Shown piece after piece: positions 33,794 to 44,284 of a stretch of 64,000 nt of DNA. Numbering within the stretch: position 1 is the first letter of the stretch; every line of letters begins with the position of its first letter. The position numbers and the translations under genes are program-made. The stretch lies in the IMG/VR virus record IMGVR_UViG_3300015177_000008, positions 1 to 64,000 of that record; one strand, 5' to 3'. Origin of the DNA: a virus (taxonomy: Duplodnaviria; Heunggongvirae; Uroviricota; Caudoviricetes). The notes beneath the pieces are model-generated. The model had not been told where the DNA came from. It searched no databases and was given only the letters and a program-made list of their open reading frames with translations.

Positions 33794-34199
33794 ATTGTCT
33801 TTGACTCACTCCAACAACATAAAAATAAGCGCAAAAATAACGCCATAGACGAGCTTTTATATCCTTACCAGCATATACCCATTACTTAGCGCATTAACGC
33901 GCTTAAAACGCGTTATATTGCGTTATGGTGTATGGTTAATCATTGGCTTTTAGTCTTGCTTTATGATCCGCGTTTATTTGTCGGCGCGGATCGGCATTTT
34001 GTTTTGTTCCGTATCCGCTCGCGTATTATGTGCGCGTGATTTTTCACATAATCACACCACTTAATCACGTATGTGATTACGCTACGAAAGAAATCTGGAT
34101 GTCTCAGGCGACGAAAGTCATCATGATTTCCCCGCTCACCTGTCCGACAACCGCTGGTTGGATTCCACCAGCTTCCCGATGTTTTTTCTACATAAAGGC

Positions 34200-34325
34200 G
34201 AATGCAGCCGTTTCCCGAAAAAATCCTGGCCGTTTCCCGTCGGCTCATGAATACGTTCCTCGCCGTTTCTGAAAATTTCCCTGCGGCAGCTGGTGGCTAT
34301 AGAGAAAGGGCCGTTTCTGGCCCTC
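34200..34325. repeat. iteron-like direct repeats (GCCGTTTCCCGAAAA-type, 4 copies)
   Basis: Copies at about 34206, 34228, 34261 and 34309, spaced ~20-45 bp apart. Confidence 0.4.
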
Positions 34326-34332
34326 TTCTCAG

Positions 34333-34815
34333 TTACACGCCATCAAGGATGTGGATGCGGTTGCTTGCGTATACATTCAACATAAAGTTAGCGCAAAACA
34401 GTTTCCATGTATCAACGCCAGCGGCATACGTAATGTTTTTGCATTTTATTGCATTGTTGGCGATCCGCATCCCCTGCGATACTGCTTTATCGTCGGAAAA
34501 TTTGAACGACGATTGAGTTTTAATCCAGACAGAAATCTGCGTAGCGAACTCAATCAGCTTGGACTGGCAGAATCGCCCGGAGCGCACCGGAAAGACGAAC
34601 GTTCCGAATCCAGAATTTACCACATACGCTTTCTCAAATACCCGCGAGTAACGACGATTGCCAATGATGTCGCGTGCAATAATGCATTTTTCTTGTGCTG
34701 ACAGTTCTACCGTCTCATTGTCGCGCCATGCACCAAGTACTCGTTTTTCAATGTCAGAGAACGTTACAGCGATATTGCCATGTGCGGGTGCGTTTACAGT
34801 AGCGATAAAATTCAT
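34333..34815 (-). CDS. hypothetical protein
   Basis: 160-aa ORF preceded by conserved promoter/leader. Confidence 0.45.
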   Translation of the reverse strand: MNFIATVNAPAHGNIAVTFSDIEKRVLGAWRDNETVELSAQEKCIIARDIIGNRRYSRVFEKAYVVNSGFGTFVFPVRSGRFCQSKLIEFATQISVWIKTQSSFKFSDDKAVSQGMRIANNAIKCKNITYAAGVDTWKLFCANFMLNVYASNRIHILDGV

Positions 34816-35018
34816 GATTAATTCCTTATCGTAAATAACAAATTGTTTTCTTGTTGGTGTTAATTATCGTTGTACGAATAAGGCGTCAAAGTGGAAAGTT
34901 GCGGTAGCCGGACGGGAACAGGTGGGTTTGTCGGTTGCCTGGAGGTAAGAGGTTGGTGTTTTTAGCCTGCGGGGAACAGGATGGTCATTTAAGGCCACCA
35001 CTGCTGGTGGCCTTGTTT

Positions 35019-35951
35019 TCAACTGGAATAAGAATAATCTGTATTGATGAGTAAAGGCGCATCATCCACTAATCCTGACAGAAACCAGCGAGCAGTCCCG
35101 TAAAGTTCAAGGGCGTCAAGATAGCCTTCATGCAGTGCACCAACCCCAAACACATCATTATCAGCCATAGCTACCGCATCTACGGCCAGATACTCTATGA
35201 GTTCTTCCATGCTTTTTATATTTATATCGTCTAAATTCTCCAGTTTGTTCTCAATCTCATTGAAAGGGATATCCGGCATCGAATGCACTATGATTTTTGG
35301 CACATCATTCTCATTATTTACCTCCACAATAACAATTCCATACTCTGTAAAAAGAGAACTAAAGAATCTATTAAACTCTAAATTAACAAAAGATGCCGAA
35401 CCATTTAAACGCTCAACATATGGGGAACGAAAAGCTGAATGTAAATTATTTTTTCTACTTTCCTTGCCATATTCTATAATCAACTCTTTATTTTTGATCT
35501 TCTCGAGTATTCCACCTAGCTCCTCTACAATTAAAGCGCCAGTGTTTTCTCTTTCTTTTGATACTATAGTTGAAAGACTGATCAAGGCTTCTGTTATACT
35601 GTTATTAGAAACGATCAGATGAAATAGCTCCAGCATAGCCAATCGACCACTATCAGTGAACGTAACAAAGTTTATTGCATCTATTTCATTTTTAATCGCA
35701 AGAAACTCACATTTATTTTTGATGTTTTCCCGAATTGACATCTCCACACGCTGTCTTATTCTCAACACCTGCTTAAAGTAAGTATTTTCAAAACATTCGA
35801 CAGAAAATGTCTTCTTACCATCATTCACAATAGCCAATCTGTATTCATATTCAAGACCATTAAGTTCAAGGCAATCACTGTCATATTGGGACCCATCTTT
35901 AACTGAAAACAATTCACTAATGTCAATTTGTCCCAAAAATACTGGTTTCAT
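35019..35951 (-). CDS. hypothetical protein (AT-rich)
   Basis: 310-aa ORF, low GC; followed by conserved GGCCACC..GGTGGCC hairpin. Confidence 0.5.
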   Translation of the reverse strand: MKPVFLGQIDISELFSVKDGSQYDSDCLELNGLEYEYRLAIVNDGKKTFSVECFENTYFKQVLRIRQRVEMSIRENIKNKCEFLAIKNEIDAINFVTFTDSGRLAMLELFHLIVSNNSITEALISLSTIVSKERENTGALIVEELGGILEKIKNKELIIEYGKESRKNNLHSAFRSPYVERLNGSASFVNLEFNRFFSSLFTEYGIVIVEVNNENDVPKIIVHSMPDIPFNEIENKLENLDDINIKSMEELIEYLAVDAVAMADNDVFGVGALHEGYLDALELYGTARWFLSGLVDDAPLLINTDYSYSS

Positions 35952-36088
35952 TTTTAATTCCTCGTTTGTTTTCGATGTGATAATTATCGCTGAATGAAAT
36001 AGGCTAAAAAGAAGATTTGTAAGGCAACTATCTGGAAGTAAGGCAAAGGGTGGTCATTTAAGGCCACCAGCATTGGTGACCTTATTCT

Positions 36089-36370
36089 TCAGTGGAGCAG
36101 ACCGATGTCGATGGTATCCCCTGAATCATCCACACGGATCATCAGCATGGCAAAGGCGTTTAGTGGATAGCTTGCGTGCCATTCAGGGAAGCGGTCATCT
36201 CGCATGAAGTCGGCAATGTCATAAACGCATCCCTCAAAGTGGAAGAATCGCGTGCTTACCTGCTCGTCATAATCCACATGATCCATTTCTTGCTGTTCTT
36301 TTTCCGGCAAATCCAGCCATGATTCAAGGAATACATTTTGTGCTTTAGTGGTAATGGTGAAGTCAGTCAT
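36089..36370 (-). CDS. small acidic protein (hypothetical)
   Basis: 93 aa, D/E-rich; conserved hairpin after stop. Confidence 0.45.
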   Translation of the reverse strand: MTDFTITTKAQNVFLESWLDLPEKEQQEMDHVDYDEQVSTRFFHFEGCVYDIADFMRDDRFPEWHASYPLNAFAMLMIRVDDSGDTIDIGLLH

Positions 36371-36373
36371 TCT

Positions 36374-36514
36374 TCACCTCCATTTTGATAGAAAATCATC
36401 CATCTCAAGATAGCCATTAAGCTCCTGCTCTGACATGATGATGTTTTCCATGCTTCTGATAGCCTCAAGTAACGACTCCCGATCTGACGAAGCGACAGTA
36501 ACAATGTATTCCAT
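36374..36514 (-). CDS. 46-aa small ORF translationally coupled to the downstream acidic gene
   Basis: MEYIVTVASSDRESLLEAIRSMENIIMSEQELNGYLEMDDFLSKWR by my translation; its stop lies 3 nt before the next ATG, within GGAGGTGA. Confidence 0.25.
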   Translation of the reverse strand: MEYIVTVASSDRESLLEAIRSMENIIMSEQELNGYLEMDDFLSKWR

Positions 36515-36641
36515 ATTATTTCACCACCTAATAAACACGTTGTTTTCTTGTTGTTGTAATTATCGCGGTGTAGATAAGGCAGAAAACAAATTGTTATCGG
36601 GTATAAGAAAATGGCGCGGTTTACGCGCCATTCAAAGAGGA

Positions 36642-37037
36642 TTAAGCGAATACGCTTTCAGGGATTAAGGTGTCAGCAGGAATGCCGGATGTAATGCGCA
36701 GACCATACTGACCAATCCAGGTGGTGCTGGTGTTCAGGCTGGAGGTGAATACGGAATTAACCATATTCATCATGGTTTCAAACACCTCTTCATCAACCTG
36801 GCGGAAGTAGTTCTCGATTTTCAGCAGCAGCGGGTCAGTTGCATCGAGAATGGACTGGTATTGAGTCGCGTACTCGCCGCCGGAGGCATCACCTTTACGC
36901 ACGATCGTACTGGCCTGTACTTCGGCACCAGTTTCGGTGTTGTACGTAACAACGGTGATTTTTGCCACATTCTTACCTTCGGCGGTTTCAGAGGCATAGT
37001 AAACATCAACTGTCAGTTTTTCGCGTTTAACGGTCAT
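36642..37037 (-). CDS. hypothetical protein
   Basis: 131-aa ORF; TATAAAAT -10-like box preceded by GTAAGTA-tg-TACTTAC palindrome. Confidence 0.45.
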   Translation of the reverse strand: MTVKREKLTVDVYYASETAEGKNVAKITVVTYNTETGAEVQASTIVRKGDASGGEYATQYQSILDATDPLLLKIENYFRQVDEEVFETMMNMVNSVFTSSLNTSTTWIGQYGLRITSGIPADTLIPESVFA

Positions 37038-37163
37038 TTCACTCTCCGTAGTGTCTTGATTATTTTTCTATTTTATAGCCGTAAGTATGTACTTACAATA
37101 CAAAAAAGCCCCGTAAGGATGGCGGGGCTGTCGTACTGTCGACTAATTACCACTTGCACATTA

Positions 37164-37475
37164 TCAGGCTATTGCCATCACTGATGCTCTCTGAATTTCT
37201 TGCTGGGCCACGCGGTTAACTTCCATCAAAGCCAGTTCGAGCTGATGTTCCGGCCACATTCTTTGAAATGCCACCCAGCCTTTTCCACGCTGGCGACGAA
37301 CATTCATTACATAACGAGTAAAGGTGTTTTTATCGAAAGACACCGCTGTTTCACGGAACAGACGAATAGAGGTCCCATTGGCAACGATGTCCAGCAAAGT
37401 TAATTGAGCAACCAGTGCAGGCTTCTCTTTTCTCTTCTGGTCTTTGTCCAGACCAAGAACCAATGATTTTTTCAT
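37164..37475 (-). CDS. hypothetical basic protein
   Basis: Start at internal Met (MKKSLVLGL); conserved leader upstream. Confidence 0.4.
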   Translation of the reverse strand: MKKSLVLGLDKDQKRKEKPALVAQLTLLDIVANGTSIRLFRETAVSFDKNTFTRYVMNVRRQRGKGWVAFQRMWPEHQLELALMEVNRVAQQEIQRASVMAIA

Positions 37476-37628
37476 CACAACTCCGTAAACAACTTGTTTT
37501 CTCAATGGCGTAAATAATACCAGTAAGAAAACGGCTACAAAGCATATTGATCAGGCGCATGAGCGATATGCAGGTTCTTCCCTGCGGCTATAGAGAAATT
37601 AAGCCAGCAATGCTGGCTTTGGTTGGGG

Positions 37629-37958
37629 TTACTCGAATACTTCAAGAAACTCCTGAACGTCCCAATGCTGGACGAGGTGAAGATAGACCTTAGAAATCAC
37701 GTCATTTTCGCTATCGCATGTGAAGTAGTACTTCTGGCTGCGGTTGTATGTGTCCACACAAAATTCGCTCATATCCATAAAGTCAGCATCTTCACCCATG
37801 TCGCAAATCATCAAAGCAGGTGCGTCATCACGAGTCATCAGCTCCAGCACCCATCTTGAATTGATCAGAGTGGAAGACCAACCTTCTAACTCATAAAACT
37901 GATCAAACTCTTTTTGAGTTAATTTCTTGATTTGGTTGATGTCGATATTTGTAAACAT
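37629..37958 (-). CDS. small acidic protein (hypothetical)
   Basis: Start at ATG 37956-37958 with AAGGA RBS; conserved leader upstream. Confidence 0.4.
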   Translation of the reverse strand: MFTNIDINQIKKLTQKEFDQFYELEGWSSTLINSRWVLELMTRDDAPALMICDMGEDADFMDMSEFCVDTYNRSQKYYFTCDSENDVISKVYLHLVQHWDVQEFLEVFE

Positions 37959-38096
37959 AAAGCAATCCTTAAACATGTTGTTTTCTGAATTGCGTAAACA
38001 ATACCAGTAAGAAAACGGCCACAAAGTATATCGTTACGGTGTTGCGCTGCCCGGAGGTTAATAGCGACAAAAGCCACCGTGCTGGTGGCCTCACTC

Positions 38097-38315
38097 TTAA
38101 TCTTCGTCGCCCGGGAACTCGCTGTGTACCGCGTCCACCAGCTCCCGCTTTTCATCTTCACTCAGCAGGTGCCAGATATCCTTCCCCTTGGGCGGTTCCC
38201 CTTCTGCCGGGACGAACGACCACAACTTGCGGTACAACTCCGGCCCCACTGCATCCAGACACTCAGCCAGGGAATCCACGCCCCACACCTCAACCGTCAC
38301 AGGCATCTTAATCAT
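38097..38315 (-). CDS. small acidic protein (hypothetical)
   Basis: 72 aa, acidic C-terminus; conserved leader and hairpin. Confidence 0.4.
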   Translation of the reverse strand: MIKMPVTVEVWGVDSLAECLDAVGPELYRKLWSFVPAEGEPPKGKDIWHLLSEDEKRELVDAVHSEFPGDED

Positions 38316-38689
38316 CTCTTCATCCTCACTTCGTTTATATAACGTCTAAACATGTTGTTTACTTGTTGGTGTTATTATCGCAATAAGACAAAGGCGGAAA
38401 AGGATTTTATGTCGGGAAAGCCAGGCGGGTAGTGAGTATCCGGGAACGACACGGGAACCAGTATTTACGATATTCTGCTCTACGCGCGCCGCAGGGCTGG
38501 TGGGCAGAATTTTCTTCTCCCCGAAAACCTACTGAAATCGATTGTGACCCGCTGACTGTCTGGCACAATTACGCTGTAGCTGGGCATTCAGAGGGAATCC
38601 AGCGGTAAGCAAGTCCGCCTACGTGAGCGCCTCTCTTCTTCCCGCACATTACAGGTGGGTAGCCGCAACTCTCCCTCTCGCTATACCGG

Positions 38690-38830
38690 TACGCCGCCGT
38701 TCCTGAACCGGCATCGAGCCTTTTCCCGAAATCCACACAGGCAACTCAACCGTTTCCCTGAAAATCCCCAGCCGTTCCCCGAAGGCAACCCAGCCGTTTT
38801 TGTAGCGGGATGCAGCCTTTTCCCTGTATG
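38690..38830. repeat. iteron-like direct repeats (GCCGTTTCCCGAAAA-type, about 6 copies)
   Basis: CGCCGTTCCTGAA, AGCCTTTTCCCGAAA, AACCGTTTCCCTGAAAA, AGCCGTTCCCCGAAGG, AGCCGTTTTTG, AGCCTTTTCCCTG. Confidence 0.4.
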
Positions 38831-38939
38831 GACCGAAGGCTGACCGTAGGGGTGTTACGGGGGATAAAATCAGGAGTTGAATAAATACGAAAAAGGAGGC
38901 GACACCCCTCCTTCCCTCCCCACTTATACATACCTGGCT

Positions 38940-39800
38940 TCTTCGCTATACATGTTGTGTTTTATCTGTCTCAACCTCTCTATAGGCGTTAATGCTCACT
39001 CCTTCCAGAATGTTCTATACGGCGACTATTTCTGTTGGTGAATTGGGTGTGTTGTTTTCTCTGTCGGTGTATGTGGTTTCGTTCGTTTTGCGGTGGTTCT
39101 TCTATGGGGTGTTCTCGTCGTTTTGGTGATTGTTCTTCTCCGTGTATGGAGTAATGGCAGGTGGGCGATTCCTTTCGTTGTTGTGTTTGAGTTGTTTGTC
39201 TGGAGTGTGTGAAAGGCTTTTGTAGTTATTCGTGTATTGGGTAATGGCGTTTCCCGTGATTGTTCTGTTTCGTGTCTTTTGGGATTGAGAGAAACCTTGC
39301 GGTTACAGGCTTCGTTGGGGTTTCAGTGATTCTGGTGTTTCTTCGCTGTTTGGGGAATGGCGTGTCGTGGGTATCGCGCGTATGAATGTTTTCGGATTGC
39401 CTGTGAAAGTTAGGTTGGTTGTCCGGTAGCCTGGGAAGAAGAGGTGGGTCTTTTCGGTAGCCTGCCATAAAGAGGTTGGTTGTTTTTGGTAATGGCATAT
39501 GTGTTATTTAGTTGTTTTGTTATACCTGAAAATAAGTTGTTTATATGGTTGTGTAACGCAACGGGAGCGATTTTGAGCGTGTGTTTTTGTTGGTAGTGTG
39601 TTTGGTCGTCTGCGGTGAAAATTGGACGCTGTGGCGCTGTCTGCTGCGTAGAATTACGGGTATAAGCAGTGATGTGTGAAAACGTCAATTTTTTAGACCA
39701 AATCGGGTGAAAGCGTTGATGTTTCGTTGATCTGTTATTCAGTTGTTTTCTTGATTGTATAAACAACCATAACTTATTGATATTTAAGGATATGATTGCG
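38940..39800. repeat. GT-rich (minus strand CA-rich) ORF-free region with ~100-bp degenerate repeats
   Basis: Repeated GG(G/A)GTAATGGC(G/A) cores at about 39150, 39245, 39355 and 39490; strong strand compositional bias; contains copies of the conserved leader motif. Confidence 0.35.
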
Positions 39801-39897
39801 GGTATGGAAGGGGAGTAGTGGCGATCAACGGATTCTTATAGAAAAGAATCAAATTGTGACCGCCATTATCAACTGATTGATTTGTTTACTTGTGTAG

Positions 39898-40992: not shown

Positions 40993-43026
40993 TTACTTAA
41001 CTTGGTGGCCTGGTTTAGCACCGGCATCCGGGCTTAGCAGGAAAATATCTTTCCCGCCAGGACCGGCAGCCATCACCATGCCTTCGGAGATGCCAAAGCG
41101 CATTTTACGCGGAGCCAGGTTAGCCACCATAATGGTGTGACGACCAATCAGTGCCTGTGGGTCTGGATAAGCAGAACGGATGCCTGAGAAGACATTACGC
41201 TTTTCACCACCGAGATCCAGTGTCAGACGCAGCAGTTTGTCAGAACCTTCTACAAACTCTGCATTTTCAATCAGCGCCACGCGCAGGTCAACTTTGGCGA
41301 AGTCGTCAAAGGTGATAGTTTCCTGAATCGGGTCGTCAGCCAGTGGGCCAGTTACCGGTACGGCTGTGGCTTTCACTTCTTCTTTGGATGCTTCCACCAG
41401 TGCTTCAACCTGCTTCATATCGATGCGGTTATACAGTGCCTTGAACGGATTCACTTTATGGCCCAGCAGCGGTTGCTGGATACCATCCCAGGTCAGTTCC
41501 GTATTGAGGAATGCTTCCGCACGTTCAGTCAGTTTCGGCAGTACCGGTTTCAGGTACGTCATCAGCACGCGGAACAGGTTAATGCCCATAGAGCAAATCG
41601 CTTGCAGATCGGCATCGCGGCCTTCCTGCTTCGCCACCACCCACGGAGCCTGTTCATCGACATAGCGGTTAGCCAGGTCAGCCAATGCCATGATTTCACG
41701 AATCGCTTTACCAAATTCGCGGCTTTCCCATGCTTCACCAATCACTTCAGCGGCATCAGTAAAGGTTTTGTACAGTTGCGGGTCAGCCAGTTCGCCTGCC
41801 AGCACACCGTCAAAACGCTTATTGATAAAGCCCGCGTTACGGGACGCCAGATTCACCACTTTGTTCACGATATCGGCATTCACGCGCTGAACGAAATCCT
41901 CCAGGTTGAGATCGATATCATCAATGCGCGAAGAGAGTTTCGCAGTGTAGTAGTAACGCAGGCTGTCAGCGTCAAAATGATTCAGCCAGGTGCTGGCTTT
42001 AATAAAGGTGCCGCGAGACTTGGACATCTTCGCACCGTTCACCGTCACATAGCCATGAACAAACAGGTTGGTCGGCTTGCGGAAGTTGCTGCCTTCCAGC
42101 ATGGCAGGCCAGAACAGGCTGTGGAAGTAAACGATATCTTTACCGATGAAGTGGTACAGCTCGGCGGTGGAGTCTTTCTTCCAGTATTCGTCGAAGCTGG
42201 TAGTGTCGCCGCGTTTGTCGCACAGATTCTTGAAGGAACCCATGTAGCCAATCGGCGCGTCCAGCCAGACGTAGAAATATTTGCCCGGCGCGTTCGGAAT
42301 TTCAAAACCGAAGTAAGGCGCATCGCGGGAGATATCCCACTGTTGCAGGCCGGATTCAAACCATTCCTGCATTTTGTTCGCCACCTGCTCCTGCAACGCG
42401 CCGCTGCGGGTCCATGCCTGCAACATTTCGCTGAAAGAGGGCAGATCAAAGAAGAAGTGTTCGGAATCACGCATTACCGGGGTAGCGCCAGAAACCACCG
42501 ATTTCGGCTCGATCAATTCAGTCGGGCTATATGTTGCGCCGCAGACTTCACAGTTATCGCCGTATTGATCTGGCGCTTTACATTTCGGGCAGGTGCCTTT
42601 CACAAAACGATCCGGCAGGAACATGCCTTTTTCCGGGTCGTACAACTGAGAGATAGTGCGGTTTTTAATAAAACCGTTCTCTTTCAGGCGAGTATAGATA
42701 AGTTCTGACAACTGGCGGTTCTCTTCGCTGTGCGTCGAGTGATAGTTGTCATAGCTGATGTTAAAGCCTGCGAAATCAGTCTGGTGTTCCTGACTCATTT
42801 CGCCAATCATCTGCTCCGGTGTGATACCAAGCTGCTGTGCTTTCAGCATGATTGGCGTACCGTGGGCATCGTCGGCACAGATGAAATTAACCTCGTGGCC
42901 GCGCATTCGCTGGTAACGAACCCAGACATCAGCCTGGATGTGCTCCAGCATATGGCCGAGGTGGATTGAGCCGTTAGCGTACGGCAGCGCGCACGTCACC
43001 AGAATTTTCTTCGCGACTTGGGTCAT
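40993..43026 (-). CDS. metG: methionine--tRNA ligase
   Basis: Near-identical to my recollection of E. coli MetG ([30 protein letters not shown]); start set at ATG 43024-43026 (677 aa) rather than the upstream TTG of the ORF track. Confidence 0.95.
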
Positions 43027-43183
43027 AGTAGGCATTACTTCTTTGTAGTGAAAAGGGGCTTGATAGTAACAAAATGGCCTTATGTCTGCCATGTGATAAC
43101 AGCATTTCTCATAAATGATTAAATGTCGTAGCTGGAGTACACTACAAGGCGACAATTGCGCAAATTAAAATAAAGGAGACGGG

Positions 43184-44284
43184 ATGAGCGAGTCCAAATC
43201 GCCGGATGCCCTAAGAGCAATGGTAGCCGGTACGTTGGCTAATTTTCAGCACCCAACCCTGAAACACAACCTGACTACGCTTAAAGCGTTACACCATGTT
43301 GCGTTGATGGATGACACACTGCATGTCGAACTAATCATGCCTTTCGTGTGGAATAAGCCTTTTGAAGACCTGAAAGAGCAATGTAGTGGTGATCTGCTCC
43401 GTATCACTGGCGCAAAGGCTATCGACTGGAAGCTGTCGTACAATATTGCCACGCTTAAGCGCGTCAAAAACCAACCAGGCATTAATGGCGTTAAGAACAT
43501 TATCGCCGTCAGCTCAGGCAAGGGCGGCGTGGGTAAATCCTCCACAGCGGTAAACCTGGCACTGGCTTTGGCTGCTGAAGGTGCGAAAGTTGGTATTTTG
43601 GATGCCGATATCTATGGTCCATCAATTCCAACCATGCTGGGCGCGGAAAACCAACGTCCAACCTCACCGGACGGTACTCACATGTCACCTATCATGTCTC
43701 ATGGCCTGGCAACCAACTCTATTGGTTATCTGGTCACCGACGACAATGCAATGGTGTGGCGTGGACCGATGGCCAGCAAGGCGCTGATGCAGATGTTGCA
43801 GGAAACACTGTGGCCTGATCTGGACTATCTCGTTCTCGATATGCCACCGGGCACTGGTGATATTCAATTGACGCTGGCGCAGAACATTCCTGTAACTGGT
43901 GCGGTTGTGGTAACTACGCCGCAAGACATCGCGCTGATCGATGCGAAGAAAGGCATTGTGATGTTCGAAAAAGTCGAAGTGCCGGTACTGGGTATCGTCG
44001 AAAACATGAGTGTGCATATTTGCAGTAACTGCGGTCATCACGAACCAATTTTTGGCACCGGTGGCGCACAGAAACTGGCCGAGAAATACAACACGCAGTT
44101 GTTAGGCCAAATGCCACTTCATATCTCTCTTCGTGAAGATCTGGATAACGGAACACCAACCGTTATTAGTCGTCCAGATAGCGAATTTACGGCTATTTAT
44201 CGTGACCTCGCAGATCGCGTTGCTGCCCAAATGTATTGGCAAGGTGAAGTAATACCTGGCGAAATCGCATTCCGCGCAGTGTGA
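43184..44284 (+). CDS. apbC: Fe-S cluster carrier P-loop ATPase Mrp/ApbC
   Basis: Deviant Walker A SGKGGVGKSS, CxxC; divergent from metG as in E. coli. Confidence 0.95.
   Translation: MSESKSPDALRAMVAGTLANFQHPTLKHNLTTLKALHHVALMDDTLHVELIMPFVWNKPFEDLKEQCSGDLLRITGAKAIDWKLSYNIATLKRVKNQPGINGVKNIIAVSSGKGGVGKSSTAVNLALALAAEGAKVGILDADIYGPSIPTMLGAENQRPTSPDGTHMSPIMSHGLATNSIGYLVTDDNAMVWRGPMASKALMQMLQETLWPDLDYLVLDMPPGTGDIQLTLAQNIPVTGAVVVTTPQDIALIDAKKGIVMFEKVEVPVLGIVENMSVHICSNCGHHEPIFGTGGAQKLAEKYNTQLLGQMPLHISLREDLDNGTPTVISRPDSEFTAIYRDLADRVAAQMYWQGEVIPGEIAFRAV

What the first reader, a model, noticed from the sequence alone, without database searches (positions are those of the whole stretch)
38940..39800. 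About 0.9 kb GT-rich, ORF-free region with ~100-bp degenerate tandem repeats
Strong strand bias (plus strand G+T rich, so a minus-strand transcript would be C/A-rich and G-poor), recurring GG(G/A)GTAATGGC cores at ~100-bp spacing, and leader motifs at its upstream edge (39740-39769). It could be a long non-coding RNA, a Rho-utilisation-type C-rich terminator region insulating the small-gene cluster, or a decayed repeat protein gene. The ORF-track frames here are low-complexity and unconvincing.
Basis: seen in the sequence. Interest (0 to 1): 0.45.

Follow-up and report, generated by a model that had tools for sequence, protein, structure and literature searches.

The report
Conserved untranslatable non-coding spacer, phage-plasmid
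An 860-base protein-free stretch of an SSU5-type phage-plasmid, kept by selection in hundreds of enterobacterial plasmids, would give an unfolded, untranslatable, C-rich RNA; it is most likely a transcription stop zone between cargo genes and phage genes, though a role in phage DNA replication is not excluded.

Summary
The window is an SSU5-like phage-plasmid of E. coli. The finding lies in a 1.58-kb gene-free gap (38316-39897) that is conserved and unannotated across this family.

Confirmed:
- The strand bias is real. G+T reaches 0.73, 7 SD above the window mean, and it holds in 40 lineages.
- No reading frame is conserved.
- The G(T/G)AATGGC cores are real.

Not confirmed: there is no regular 100-bp tandem array.

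The block is under purifying selection. It is 67% identical to SSU5, against 41-50% at four-fold sites of neighbouring genes, so it is not a decayed gene.

The constraint is strand-specific. The minus-sense RNA is C-rich and G-poor. It is the least foldable stretch of the 64 kb, nearly free of start codons, and ends in a conserved hairpin that folds well only on the minus strand. Every lineage has a different cargo gene reading into the block. Published LF82 RNA-seq shows a more than 100-fold drop across its upstream edge.

Best reading (confidence about 0.4): a Rho-loading termination zone with a hairpin backstop that insulates phage genes from cargo transcription.

Not explained by that reading: the invariant boxes, the operator-type promoter copies pointing into the block, and the adjacent iterons. 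These keep a cis-acting replication role, or a lytic-phase RNA, alive.

The parts
38940..39800 (-). C/A-rich, G-poor, non-coding block (core 39000-39640). As minus-sense RNA it is unfolded and nearly untranslatable.
   Evidence: Composition. Only long C/G>=2 run on the minus strand (39011-39869). The six least-folded 200-nt windows of the 64 kb. No conserved local structure in the core. 12.5 start codons per kb against 55.6. No conserved ORF. Purifying selection.
39819..39865 (-). Near-invariant inverted repeat (GGCGGTCA...TGATCGCC, with an inner GATTCTT/AAGAATC stem) at the boundary with the variable cargo gene. It has no U tract and is flanked by CGTTGA(C/T) boxes.
   Evidence: Folding gives -20.6 kcal/mol, z -4.4. 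Almost invariant in 35 distinct sequences, so there is no covariation to judge. Consensus-structure z -3.2.
39743..39759 (-). Only half of the palindrome is present and no ORF follows.
39659..39688 (-). Sigma-70-like promoter candidate TTGACG-18-TATACC pointing into the block. The hexamers are conserved and the spacer is variable, but the -10 lacks the final T.
   Evidence: Present in 37 of 40 lineages; alignment.
39530..39556 (-). Second copy of the phage-wide promoter/operator. Most lineages have TTGCGTTATAT-N9-AAACAAGTTGTTT. The copy is degenerate in the E. coli clade, and no ORF follows.
39424..39485 (.). Tandem 31-bp repeat x2 (CGGTAGCCTG...AAGAGGTGGGT). The plus strand carries CGGTAGCCTG, which equals positions 3-12 of the RfaH ops element at 9 of 10 bases.
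   Evidence: ops definition from PMC5995543
39136..39163 (.). Box 1, TTCTCCGTGTATGGAGTAATGGCAGGTG. This is the best conserved of the repeated boxes.
39226..39253 (.). Box 2, with core GTAATGGC at 39241-39248.
39339..39366 (.). Box 3, with core GGAATGGC at 39354-39361.
39481..39496 (.). Box 4, with core GTAATGGC at 39489-39496.
38880..38916 (-). Terminator hairpin that closes the block. In the E. coli clade the stem is followed by UUUUUCGUAUUUAUU.
   Evidence: Terminator scan. Hairpin present in all 29 distinct sequences, mean -12.8 kcal/mol on the minus strand against -7.6 on the plus strand. GU<->GC changes and one compensatory pair. Folding energy and z-scores.
38690..38830 (.). Neighbour outside the finding: six iteron-like repeats (G/A)CC(G/T)TT(T/C)(T/C)CC about 22 bp apart, just downstream of the terminator.
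   Evidence: Alignment. GCCKTTYYCY occurs 12 times against 2.4 expected. A second cluster lies at 34200-34330.
38542..38569 (+). Rightward promoter candidate TTGTGA-16-(TGG)CACAAT, of extended -10 type.
   Evidence: Found in 30 of 36 lineages.
38344..38385 (-). Promoter (TGCGATAAT) and palindromic operator AAACATGTTGTTT of the conserved 72-aa gene. This marks the left end of the gene-free gap.

Best explanation
The block is a cis-acting transcription barrier in an SSU5-type phage-plasmid. It sits between the variable cargo ('moron') genes, which are expressed in the plasmid state and always read leftwards into it, and the conserved phage module to its left (iterons and a cluster of small genes).

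The proposed sequence of events is as follows. A polymerase leaves the cargo gene and the ribosome stops. The polymerase then makes about 860 nt of RNA that cannot fold, has almost no start codons or Shine-Dalgarno sites, and has 2.4 times more C than G. That is the textbook substrate for loading of termination factor Rho, which releases the transcript. The conserved hairpin at 38890-38916 stops whatever escapes.

Shown here: the composition, its conservation under selection, the lack of structure and of translation signals, the strand-specific terminal hairpin, the orientation of the flanking genes, and a transcription valley in published data.

Inferred: that Rho is the acting factor and that insulation is the selected function.
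For: - The element is conserved and unannotated in 836 plasmid records (Klebsiella, Escherichia, Enterobacter, Salmonella, Citrobacter, Cronobacter), in 243 of 5426 complete E. coli genomes (always on plasmids), and in phages SSU5 and Cyrano.
- Purifying selection: the block is 60-77% identical between lineages. Four-fold degenerate sites of the neighbouring genes are 50% identical to SSU5, or 41% without one recently exchanged gene.
- In 40 lineages the minus-sense RNA has C 29-33% and G 13-19%.
- It is the only long run with C/G >= 2 on the minus strand of the window.
- It holds the six least-foldable 200-nt windows of the 64 kb, at -14 to -25 kcal/mol against a median of -52.
- The consensus structure energy in the core is about 0.
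- Start codons: 12.5 per kb against 55.6. Shine-Dalgarno plus start: 0.8 per kb against 5.1, and none in the window copy.
- The G-poor stretch starts right after the cargo gene's stop and the hairpin at 39819-39865, not at an internal promoter.
- The terminal hairpin is kept in all lineages and depends on G-U pairs that exist only on the minus strand.
- The right-hand neighbour differs between lineages but lies on the minus strand in all 10 annotated records.
- LF82/Cyrano RNA-seq (PMC9928086, S1 table): the upstream cargo gene CYRAN_102 gives 45-590 FPKM. CYRAN_103, which covers about 39410-39766, gives 0 FPKM in LB and at most 14 elsewhere. The downstream gene CYRAN_105 reaches about 220 FPKM.
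- Against the plasmid-wide skew, the block is the strongest local anomaly: G-C = +156 in 800 nt, with sd 28.
Against: - A rut site needs about 80 nt and no specific sequence. This block is 860 nt and contains invariant boxes (G(T/G)AATGGC, 4 copies in the window and 2-7 in other lineages; a 31-bp tandem repeat) that the model does not explain.
- Two copies of the phage's own promoter/operator element, plus a conserved TTGACG-18-TATACC, point into the block with no ORF behind them. That suggests the block is transcribed on purpose.
- In Cyrano the drop in RNA is already complete within about 130 nt of the cargo gene's stop, so most of the block is not needed for that drop.
- The full 861-nt RNA folds better than its own shuffles (z -4.9 with 20 shuffles), although its absolute energy is very low.
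- I do not know whether the RNA-seq was strand-specific, and no lytic-cycle data were available.
- Rho dependence is untested.
Confidence: 0.4

Rival explanations
1. A cis-acting lytic replication element (oriLyt, or a P4 crr-like enhancer). Operator-controlled promoters fire on induction. The unfolded, untranslated transcript stays annealed to the G/T-rich template as an R-loop, or transcription simply opens the region. The transcript's 3' end lies next to the iterons, where it primes or activates replication by the phage's own replisome. The repeated 8-mers and 31-mers would be initiator sites.
For: - Same-orientation 8-mer boxes (4 in the window, 2-7 in other lineages), a 31-bp tandem repeat, and six 22-bp-spaced iterons directly downstream. 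A second iteron cluster lies 4.5 kb away at 34200-34330.
- The phage-plasmid encodes DnaE, a DnaB-like helicase, primase, ligase, a 5'-3' exonuclease and RNase HI. Its only annotated origin function is the RepB plasmid replicon about 35 kb away.
- The iteron motif is absent from the two fetched stretches of that plasmid that hold the RepB gene and its flanks.
- Strand asymmetry over 860 bp implies a single-stranded state, RNA or unwound DNA (inference).
- Promoter/operator copies point into the block without an ORF behind them.
- The features that make an RNA a Rho substrate also favour R-loops when Rho does not act (established knowledge on Rho and R-loops).
Against: - No DnaA box in the gap, and no A+T-rich unwinding element next to the iterons.
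- The cumulative GC skew of the whole plasmid is monotonic, with its extremes at the RepB origin.
- C/A-rich RNA is not the purine-rich kind that gives the most stable RNA:DNA hybrids. GC skew predicts R-loops for the opposite direction of transcription.
- No initiator protein has been identified. The neighbouring small proteins match no Pfam family, and their PHROG matches (one has none) are to families of unknown function.
Confidence: 0.22
2. A trans-acting lytic-phase non-coding RNA of 0.65-0.85 kb. It would be made from the promoters at 39540-39760, end at the 38890-38916 hairpin, and use its repeated boxes as binding sites to soak up a host or phage single-strand RNA-binding factor. Rho itself is one candidate.
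For: - The unit is defined: promoter-like elements, no ORF, a conserved terminator.
- Most of the few G residues sit inside conserved boxes.
- A 3' hairpin together with low U content would favour stability (inference).
- Prophage-encoded anti-sRNAs are a known kind (my own knowledge; no paper read here).
Against: - 0-14 FPKM in all ten LF82 samples, including those where neighbouring phage genes rise 10-40 fold.
- The -10 of the conserved sigma-70-like promoter lacks the key final T.
- No Rfam family matches.
- No enrichment of Hfq A-R-N repeats.
- Complementarity to GcvB is confined to part of the E. coli clade.
- The number and spacing of boxes vary between lineages.
Confidence: 0.13
3. The functional transcript is the plus strand. 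A rightward promoter at 38542-38569 would give a G/U-rich RNA, and the tandem CGGTAGCCTG motifs on the non-template strand would recruit the host antiterminator RfaH.
For: - CGGTAGCCTG keeps ops bases 3-8 and T11-G12, the positions reported as critical. Substitution G2C was reported as harmless (PMC5995543).
- At least one copy is present in 39 of 40 lineages.
- An extended -10 promoter candidate is found in 30 of 36 lineages.
- Positive GC skew favours R-loops in this direction of transcription (established knowledge).
Against: - No plus-strand gene lies downstream in any lineage. All right-hand neighbours are on the minus strand.
- Two matches to CGGTAGNNTG in 64 kb are no more than chance (1.1 expected; 27 of 100 shuffles reach 2).
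- G1 is not kept, and position 10 is C instead of G.
- The hairpin that closes the block is stable only on the minus strand.
- The plus-sense RNA would carry 95 start codons per kb.
- No RfaH paralogue is annotated in the plasmid.
Confidence: 0.05
4. A decayed gene or other neutral filler whose composition is a mutational by-product.
For: Long stop-free frames on the minus strand. Some depositors annotated ORFs here (CYRAN_103, SSU5_108).
Against: - The frames are broken at different places, even among 92-98% identical relatives.
- No protein family matches.
- Identity is well above that of four-fold sites in neighbouring genes.
- The same composition is held in 40 lineages.
- The strand bias is opposite to the plasmid-wide trend.
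Confidence: 0.02

Closest known systems
Rho-dependent terminators / rut sites (for example lambda tR1; Rho-terminated long leaders such as mgtA or rpoS)
   Same: C-rich, G-poor, unstructured, untranslated RNA downstream of a stop codon, with polarity onto downstream genes and a pause or hairpin at the end.
   Different: About ten times longer than a rut site. Under sequence-level purifying selection, with invariant boxes. Contains promoter/operator copies. Rho dependence not shown.
R-loop or transcript-primed origins (ColE1 RNA II; phage T4 oriF/oriG)
   Same: A regulated promoter, a non-coding transcript of several hundred nt ending at a replication-type repeat region, and an RNase H encoded by the element.
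   Different: The RNA is unfolded, whereas ColE1 RNA II is precisely folded. The RNA is not G-rich. No unwinding element or origin activity is known here.
Phage P4 ori/crr and plasmid iteron origins
   Same: Short repeated motifs in one orientation, arranged in two clusters a few kb apart, in non-coding DNA.
   Different: Extreme strand asymmetry over 860 bp. Irregular, lineage-specific spacing of the 8-mers. No cognate initiator identified.
RfaH ops / JUMPStart leaders
   Same: Two GGTAGC-containing motifs in a long non-coding region. CGGTAGCCTG matches ops at 9 of positions 3-12.
   Different: The motif is on the strand opposite to all other directional signals. No downstream operon. G1 and G2 are missing. 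The spacing is 31 nt.
Prophage anti-sRNAs and RNA sponges (AgvB-type); ToxI-type repeat RNAs
   Same: Phage-borne non-coding RNA with repeated motifs between a promoter and a terminator. The window has a 13-nt complement to GcvB region R1 at 39177-39189.
   Different: The complementarity is not conserved outside part of the E. coli clade. The repeats are not regular tandem units. Not expressed in lysogens.

Membership tests
Rho-dependent terminator (rut region) | At least 70-80 nt of RNA with C well above G | tested here: met
   C 0.32 and G 0.135 over 651 nt. C/G >= 2 in every 78-nt window from 39011 to 39869; it is the only long such run on this strand.
Rho-dependent terminator (rut region) | Little secondary structure | tested here: met
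   -14 to -25 kcal/mol per 200 nt against a median of -52. Consensus structure energy about 0 in the core. Caveat: z -4.9 against its own shuffles.
Rho-dependent terminator (rut region) | RNA not covered by ribosomes | tested here: met
   No conserved ORF. 12.5 start codons per kb and 0.8 SD+start per kb.
Rho-dependent terminator (rut region) | Termination abolished by Rho inhibition or mutation | not testable with these tools
   Needs bicyclomycin or rho mutants. Only indirect support: a drop of more than 100-fold from CYRAN_102 to CYRAN_103.
Intrinsic terminator (38880-38916, minus strand) | G+C-rich hairpin followed by a U tract | tested here: met
   Met in the E. coli clade (-16.7 kcal/mol). 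In other lineages the hairpin is kept but the tail is only partly U-rich.
Intrinsic terminator (38880-38916, minus strand) | Pairing kept through sequence change | tested here: met
   10 pairs. Many GU<->GC changes and one pair with both sides changed in 6 of 24 sequences. The minus strand is 5 kcal/mol more stable than the plus strand on average.
Protein-coding gene or pseudogene | A frame kept open, or recognisable homology to a protein family | tested here: not met
   Stops and frameshifts in relatives. No Pfam or PHROG hit.
Tandem repeat array of about 100 bp | Head-to-tail units alike over their whole length | tested here: not met
   No array found by TRF. Only about 28 nt is alike, with spacings of 90/113/135 bp here and 18-232 bp elsewhere.
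Known RNA family (Rfam) | Match to a covariance model | tested here: not met
   No hit at gathering score in the window. Only one chance-level hit (E = 1.9), outside the block.
RfaH ops element | GGCGGTAGnnTG on the non-template strand | tested here: inconclusive
   CGGTAGCCTG x2 keeps bases 3-8, 11 and 12 but lacks G1 and G2. The count is not above chance.
RfaH ops element | Located in the leader of a long operon transcribed in that direction | tested here: not met
   No plus-strand gene downstream in any of 10 annotated records.
Iteron-type or DnaA-dependent origin | DnaA boxes and an A+T-rich unwinding element beside the iterons | tested here: not met
   No TTWTNCACA in 38316-39897. G+C is 0.44-0.59 around the iterons.
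Iteron-type or DnaA-dependent origin | Autonomous or induced replication of the fragment; a copy-number peak | not testable with these tools
   Needs cloning or marker-frequency sequencing. The plasmid-wide skew shows no inflection here.
Anti-GcvB sponge (AgvB-like) | Conserved complementarity to GcvB region R1 | tested here: not met
   The 13-mer is present in only 4 of 40 lineages. The other lineages are at or below the shuffle expectation.

The most novel reading that the evidence does not exclude
The block is a two-state cis device and the missing lytic origin of SSU5-type phage-plasmids. In the plasmid state, Rho strips the naked C-rich transcript, so the block insulates. After induction, the same unfolded, untranslated transcript is made from the operator-controlled promoters at 39530-39760. 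It then persists as an R-loop on the G/T-rich template and primes or activates replication at the adjacent iterons, with the phage RNase HI processing it.
Probability: 0.15. Interest if true: 0.8.

Novelty: new variant of a known kind. Interest (0 to 1): 0.55.

Why it matters
SSU5-like phage-plasmids are common in clinical Klebsiella, E. coli, Enterobacter and Salmonella (836 PLSDB records here). They carry resistance and virulence cargo. All of them keep a 1.6-kb stretch that no annotation pipeline labels, and I found no paper that mentions it.

If the block is a Rho-based insulator, it shows how a mobile element can accept arbitrary cargo genes at a hotspot without letting their transcription leak into its lytic genes. 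It would also give a natural, portable, direction-specific terminator module.

If it is the lytic origin or a lytic RNA, it fills a gap in the biology of a whole phage-plasmid family.

Either way the prediction is directly testable with one deletion and one bicyclomycin experiment.

Tried and rejected
- Rfam, at gathering and permissive thresholds: nothing.
- Pfam and PHROGs on every ORF of the block, and Pfam and PHROGs on ten neighbouring proteins: no function.
- Codon-phase test of substitutions: uninformative, because the control gene showed no periodicity either.
- Substitution-type spectrum: explained by composition.
- GcvB sponge: a 13-nt perfect complement at 39177-39189, but only in part of the E. 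coli clade; other lineages are at or below composition-matched shuffles.
- Hfq A-R-N repeats: not enriched.
- DnaA boxes: none in the gap.
- Whole-plasmid cumulative GC skew: monotonic, with extremes at the RepB origin and no inflection at the element.
- Matches to large Klebsiella IncFIB/IncHI1B plasmids: an IS-flanked fragment of a Klebsiella-type copy, not an independent context.
- Scan of one genome per species: only Kluyvera, Buttiauxella and one probably misbinned MAG, with no new context.
- Literature (SSU5, pHCM2, phage-plasmid): no description of this region. One 2026 preprint on phage-plasmid copy number could not be opened.
- Considered by eye and dropped, since nothing fitted: a sigma-54 promoter, an attC or dif site, and a rolling-circle nick site in the 39819-39875 element.
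Full report
WHERE WE ARE. The window is an SSU5-like phage-plasmid of E. coli. The 1.1 kb around the finding is 100% identical to a 113.7-kb plasmid contig of E. coli UID2309220033. It occurs in 243 of 5426 complete E. coli genomes, always on plasmids. It also matches phages Cyrano (97%) and SSU5 (67%), and 836 PLSDB plasmids of Klebsiella, Escherichia, Enterobacter, Salmonella (pHCM2), Citrobacter and Cronobacter. RefSeq annotation leaves a gene-free gap of 1.58 kb, window 38316-39897. The same gap of 1.4-1.8 kb is present in every relative examined. Its left neighbour is a conserved small gene on the minus strand. Its right neighbour is a different gene in almost every lineage, but always on the minus strand, so it reads into the gap. 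Further right lie cargo genes, here a lipoprotein-like ORF, DUF1380, metG and apbC.

THE OBSERVATION.
- Strand bias: real and extreme. G+T reaches 0.73 in 600-nt windows, against 0.497 +/- 0.033 for the window. On the whole plasmid this is the strongest local G-C excess (+156 in 800 nt, sd 28), and it runs against the plasmid-wide trend.
- Repeats: Tandem Repeats Finder sees no 100-bp array. What exists is four copies of G(T/G)AATGGC on one strand (39151, 39241, 39354, 39489), which is 4 of the 9 copies in 64 kb. Each sits in about 28 nt of similar context at spacings of 90, 113 and 135 bp. There is also a true 31-bp tandem repeat at 39424-39485. In other lineages the 8-mer occurs 2-7 times at spacings of 18-232 bp.
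- Leader motif: the motif at 39740-39769 is genuine. AAGAAAACAA occurs five times in the window, always on the minus strand, against 0.35 expected.

NOT CODING, NOT DECAYING. The two minus-strand ORFs (118 and 90 aa) exist because an RNA without G has only UAA as a stop. Their counterparts carry in-frame stops or frameshifts in SSU5, pHCM2, Klebsiella and Enterobacter, and even in E. coli relatives that are 92-98% identical. Stop-free stretches differ in place and length between lineages. None of the frames matches Pfam or PHROGs, and no Rfam family matches. Yet the block is 60-77% identical between lineages (67% to SSU5). Four-fold degenerate sites of the neighbouring genes are only 50% identical to SSU5, or 41% if one recently exchanged gene is left out. 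The block is therefore under purifying selection about as strong as that on the surrounding genes. The composition is held too: in 40 representative lineages the minus strand has C 29-33%, G 13-19%, A 34-41% and U 14-18%.

WHICH STRAND, AND WHAT PROPERTY. A bias of one strand over 860 bp cannot matter to double-stranded DNA recognition, so it points to a single-stranded state (inference). Several observations single out the minus sense.
- As RNA it is the least foldable part of the window. The six weakest 200-nt windows of the 64 kb all lie at 39000-39600, at -14 to -25 kcal/mol against a median of -52. The plus-sense RNA is ordinary.
- A consensus-structure scan on 15 diverse sequences gives about 0 kcal/mol through the core. 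Only the two ends give signals: z -4.0 at the terminator and z -3.2 at the right-hand hairpin.
- The minus-sense RNA has 12.5 start codons per kb against 55.6 for the window. It has 0.8 Shine-Dalgarno-plus-start combinations per kb against 5.1, and none in the window copy. The plus sense would have 95 and 8.8.
- It is the only long run with C/G >= 2 on the minus strand (39011-39869). That run begins directly after the cargo gene, not at an internal promoter.
- The block ends in a hairpin (38890-38916). The terminator scan finds it on the minus strand, and it folds in all 29 distinct sequences. It averages -12.8 kcal/mol on the minus strand against -7.6 on the plus strand, because it relies on G-U pairs. 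It shows GU<->GC changes and one compensatory pair.
- One caveat: the whole 861-nt RNA folds better than its own shuffles (z -4.9, 20 shuffles). Its absolute energy is only -15 kcal/mol per 100 nt.

THE UPSTREAM EDGE. Between 39650 and 39880 the alignment is almost invariant.
- It holds an inverted repeat at 39819-39865 (-20.6 kcal/mol, z -4.4). It does not vary, so there is no covariation to judge.
- It holds five GTTGAC/GTCAAC boxes.
- It holds a sigma-70-like TTGACG-18-TATACC in 37 of 40 lineages. The hexamers are fixed and the spacer varies, but the -10 is weak.
- Two further elements belong to a phage-wide family that I noticed while following the 'leader motif'. The family consists of a -10-like hexamer, about 10 nt, then AGAAAACAA(N)TTGTTT, found 15-35 nt upstream of the start codons of at least 11 minus-strand genes of this plasmid. 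One copy is at 39743-39759 and has only half the palindrome. The other is at 39530-39556. It is perfect in most lineages and degenerate in the E. coli clade. Neither is followed by an ORF.

EXPRESSION DATA. The LF82 study re-analysed ten RNA-seq samples on phage-plasmid Cyrano, which is 97% identical here (PMC9928086, S1 and S4 tables; values are log2(FPKM+5)).
- The cargo gene just upstream (CYRAN_102) gives 45-590 FPKM.
- The annotated ORF CYRAN_103, equal to about 39410-39766, gives 0 FPKM in both LB samples and at most 14 elsewhere.
- CYRAN_104, about 38527-38931, gives 1-20 FPKM.
- The downstream phage gene CYRAN_105 rises to about 220 FPKM in macrophages.
The block is therefore a transcription valley. 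Transcripts from the cargo gene end within about 130 nt of its stop, and the internal promoters are silent in these conditions. No sample represents a full lytic cycle, and I could not establish whether counting was strand-specific.

BEST EXPLANATION (0.4). A cis-acting barrier. The RNA made after the cargo gene's stop codon is naked, unfolded and C-rich, which are the defining properties of a Rho loading site (established knowledge). G depletion removes start codons and Shine-Dalgarno sequences, so no ribosome can protect it. The terminal hairpin catches what escapes. This explains the position at the edge of the cargo hotspot, the constant orientation of the variable neighbour, the composition, and the RNA-seq valley. 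It does not explain three things: why 860 nt are kept when 80-100 nt would do, why boxes are invariant, and why promoter/operator copies point into the block.

RIVALS.
- A cis replication element (0.22). This accounts for the boxes, the 31-mers, the six 22-bp-spaced iterons just downstream (38690-38830; motif count 12 against 2.4 expected), and a second iteron cluster at 34200-34330. It also fits a phage that encodes a replisome and RNase HI but has no known lytic origin. Against it: no DnaA boxes, no A+T-rich element, no skew inflection and no initiator.
- A trans-acting lytic RNA (0.13). It has a defined unit but no reads in the available data. The Hfq and GcvB ideas failed.
- A plus-strand reading (0.05). 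It rests on CGGTAGCCTG, which keeps ops positions 3-8 and 11-12 (PMC5995543) in 39 of 40 lineages, and on a rightward promoter candidate. There is no gene to serve, and the count is at chance level.
- Neutral decay (0.02). Excluded by conservation.

NOVELTY. I found no description of this region in the literature held here. As a Rho-type barrier it would be a known mechanism in an unusual form: very long, selected at the sequence level, and modular. The most novel reading still open is that the same transcript turns into an origin R-loop on induction.

Noticed in passing
window 23489, 34836, 36533, 37487, 37971, 38348, 40896, 54269, 54998; L014 3211, 30358, 33291: A phage-wide element: a -10-like hexamer, about 10 nt, then the palindrome AGAAAACAA(N)TTGTTT, 15-35 nt upstream of the start codons of minus-strand genes (including the terminase operon, the DnaB-like helicase and the MipZ-like ATPase). 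It looks like a regulon of operator-controlled promoters, as with C1 operators in P1. The binding protein is unknown.
   Followed up: partly
window 38690-38830 and 34200-34330: Two clusters of iteron-like repeats (GCCGTTTCCC / GCCTTTTCCC, mostly 22 bp apart, same orientation) lie 4.5 kb apart and bracket the small-gene cluster. Each lies just downstream of a minus-strand terminator hairpin. The motif is absent from the two fetched stretches of plasmid NZ_CP117002.1 (L014, L015) that hold the RepB replicon.
   Followed up: partly
window 39424-39433 and 39455-39464 (+): CGGTAGCCTG x2 inside the 31-bp tandem repeat matches the RfaH ops element GGCGGTAGnnTG at all positions reported as critical, but on the strand opposite to the other signals. 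It is conserved in 39 of 40 lineages.
   Followed up: partly
window 38542-38569 (+): A rightward extended -10 promoter candidate (TTGTGA-16-TGGCACAAT) is conserved in 30 of 36 lineages. It would transcribe across the iterons into the G/T-rich block, converging with the leftward promoter elements.
   Followed up: no
window, whole; cluster at 34165-38503: There are 16 Chi sites (GCTGGTGG) in 64 kb where about 2 are expected from length, and 7 of them fall within 4.4 kb around the small-gene cluster. The one at 38496 lies in non-coding DNA and is conserved in most lineages.
   Followed up: no
window 39177-39189: The minus-sense RNA is perfectly complementary over 13 nt to the G/U-rich R1 region of the host sRNA GcvB. 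This holds only in part of the E. coli clade.
   Followed up: yes
window 40993-43155 (-) and 43184-44284 (+): The phage-plasmid carries full-length metG (methionyl-tRNA synthetase) and apbC as cargo, in the divergent arrangement I recall for the E. coli chromosome (from memory, not checked here).
   Followed up: no
L005 5717-6470 (K. pneumoniae pCRKP-1, IncFIB/IncHI1B, 262 kb): An IS-flanked fragment of a Klebsiella-type copy of this non-coding element sits in large non-phage plasmids. It suggests recombination between phage-plasmids and resistance or virulence plasmids.
   Followed up: partly
window 37487-37540 and 37971-38024: Two neighbouring genes have almost identical duplicated promoter and leader regions (tgtagccgttttcttactggtatt...AAACAAGTTGTTT).
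   Followed up: no
Cyrano record OV696614.1 40268-40822 (CYRAN_43), outside the window region studied: In the LF82 RNA-seq table this 'hypothetical protein' next to the integrase and repressor is by far the most highly expressed Cyrano feature, listed at 723 times the local background. It could be a non-coding RNA.
   Followed up: no
L002 7452-7694 (SSU5_110) and L010 1633-1875: SSU5 and pHCM2 carry an extra plus-strand ORF of about 240 bp inserted in the left part of the gap. Other lineages lack it.
   Followed up: no
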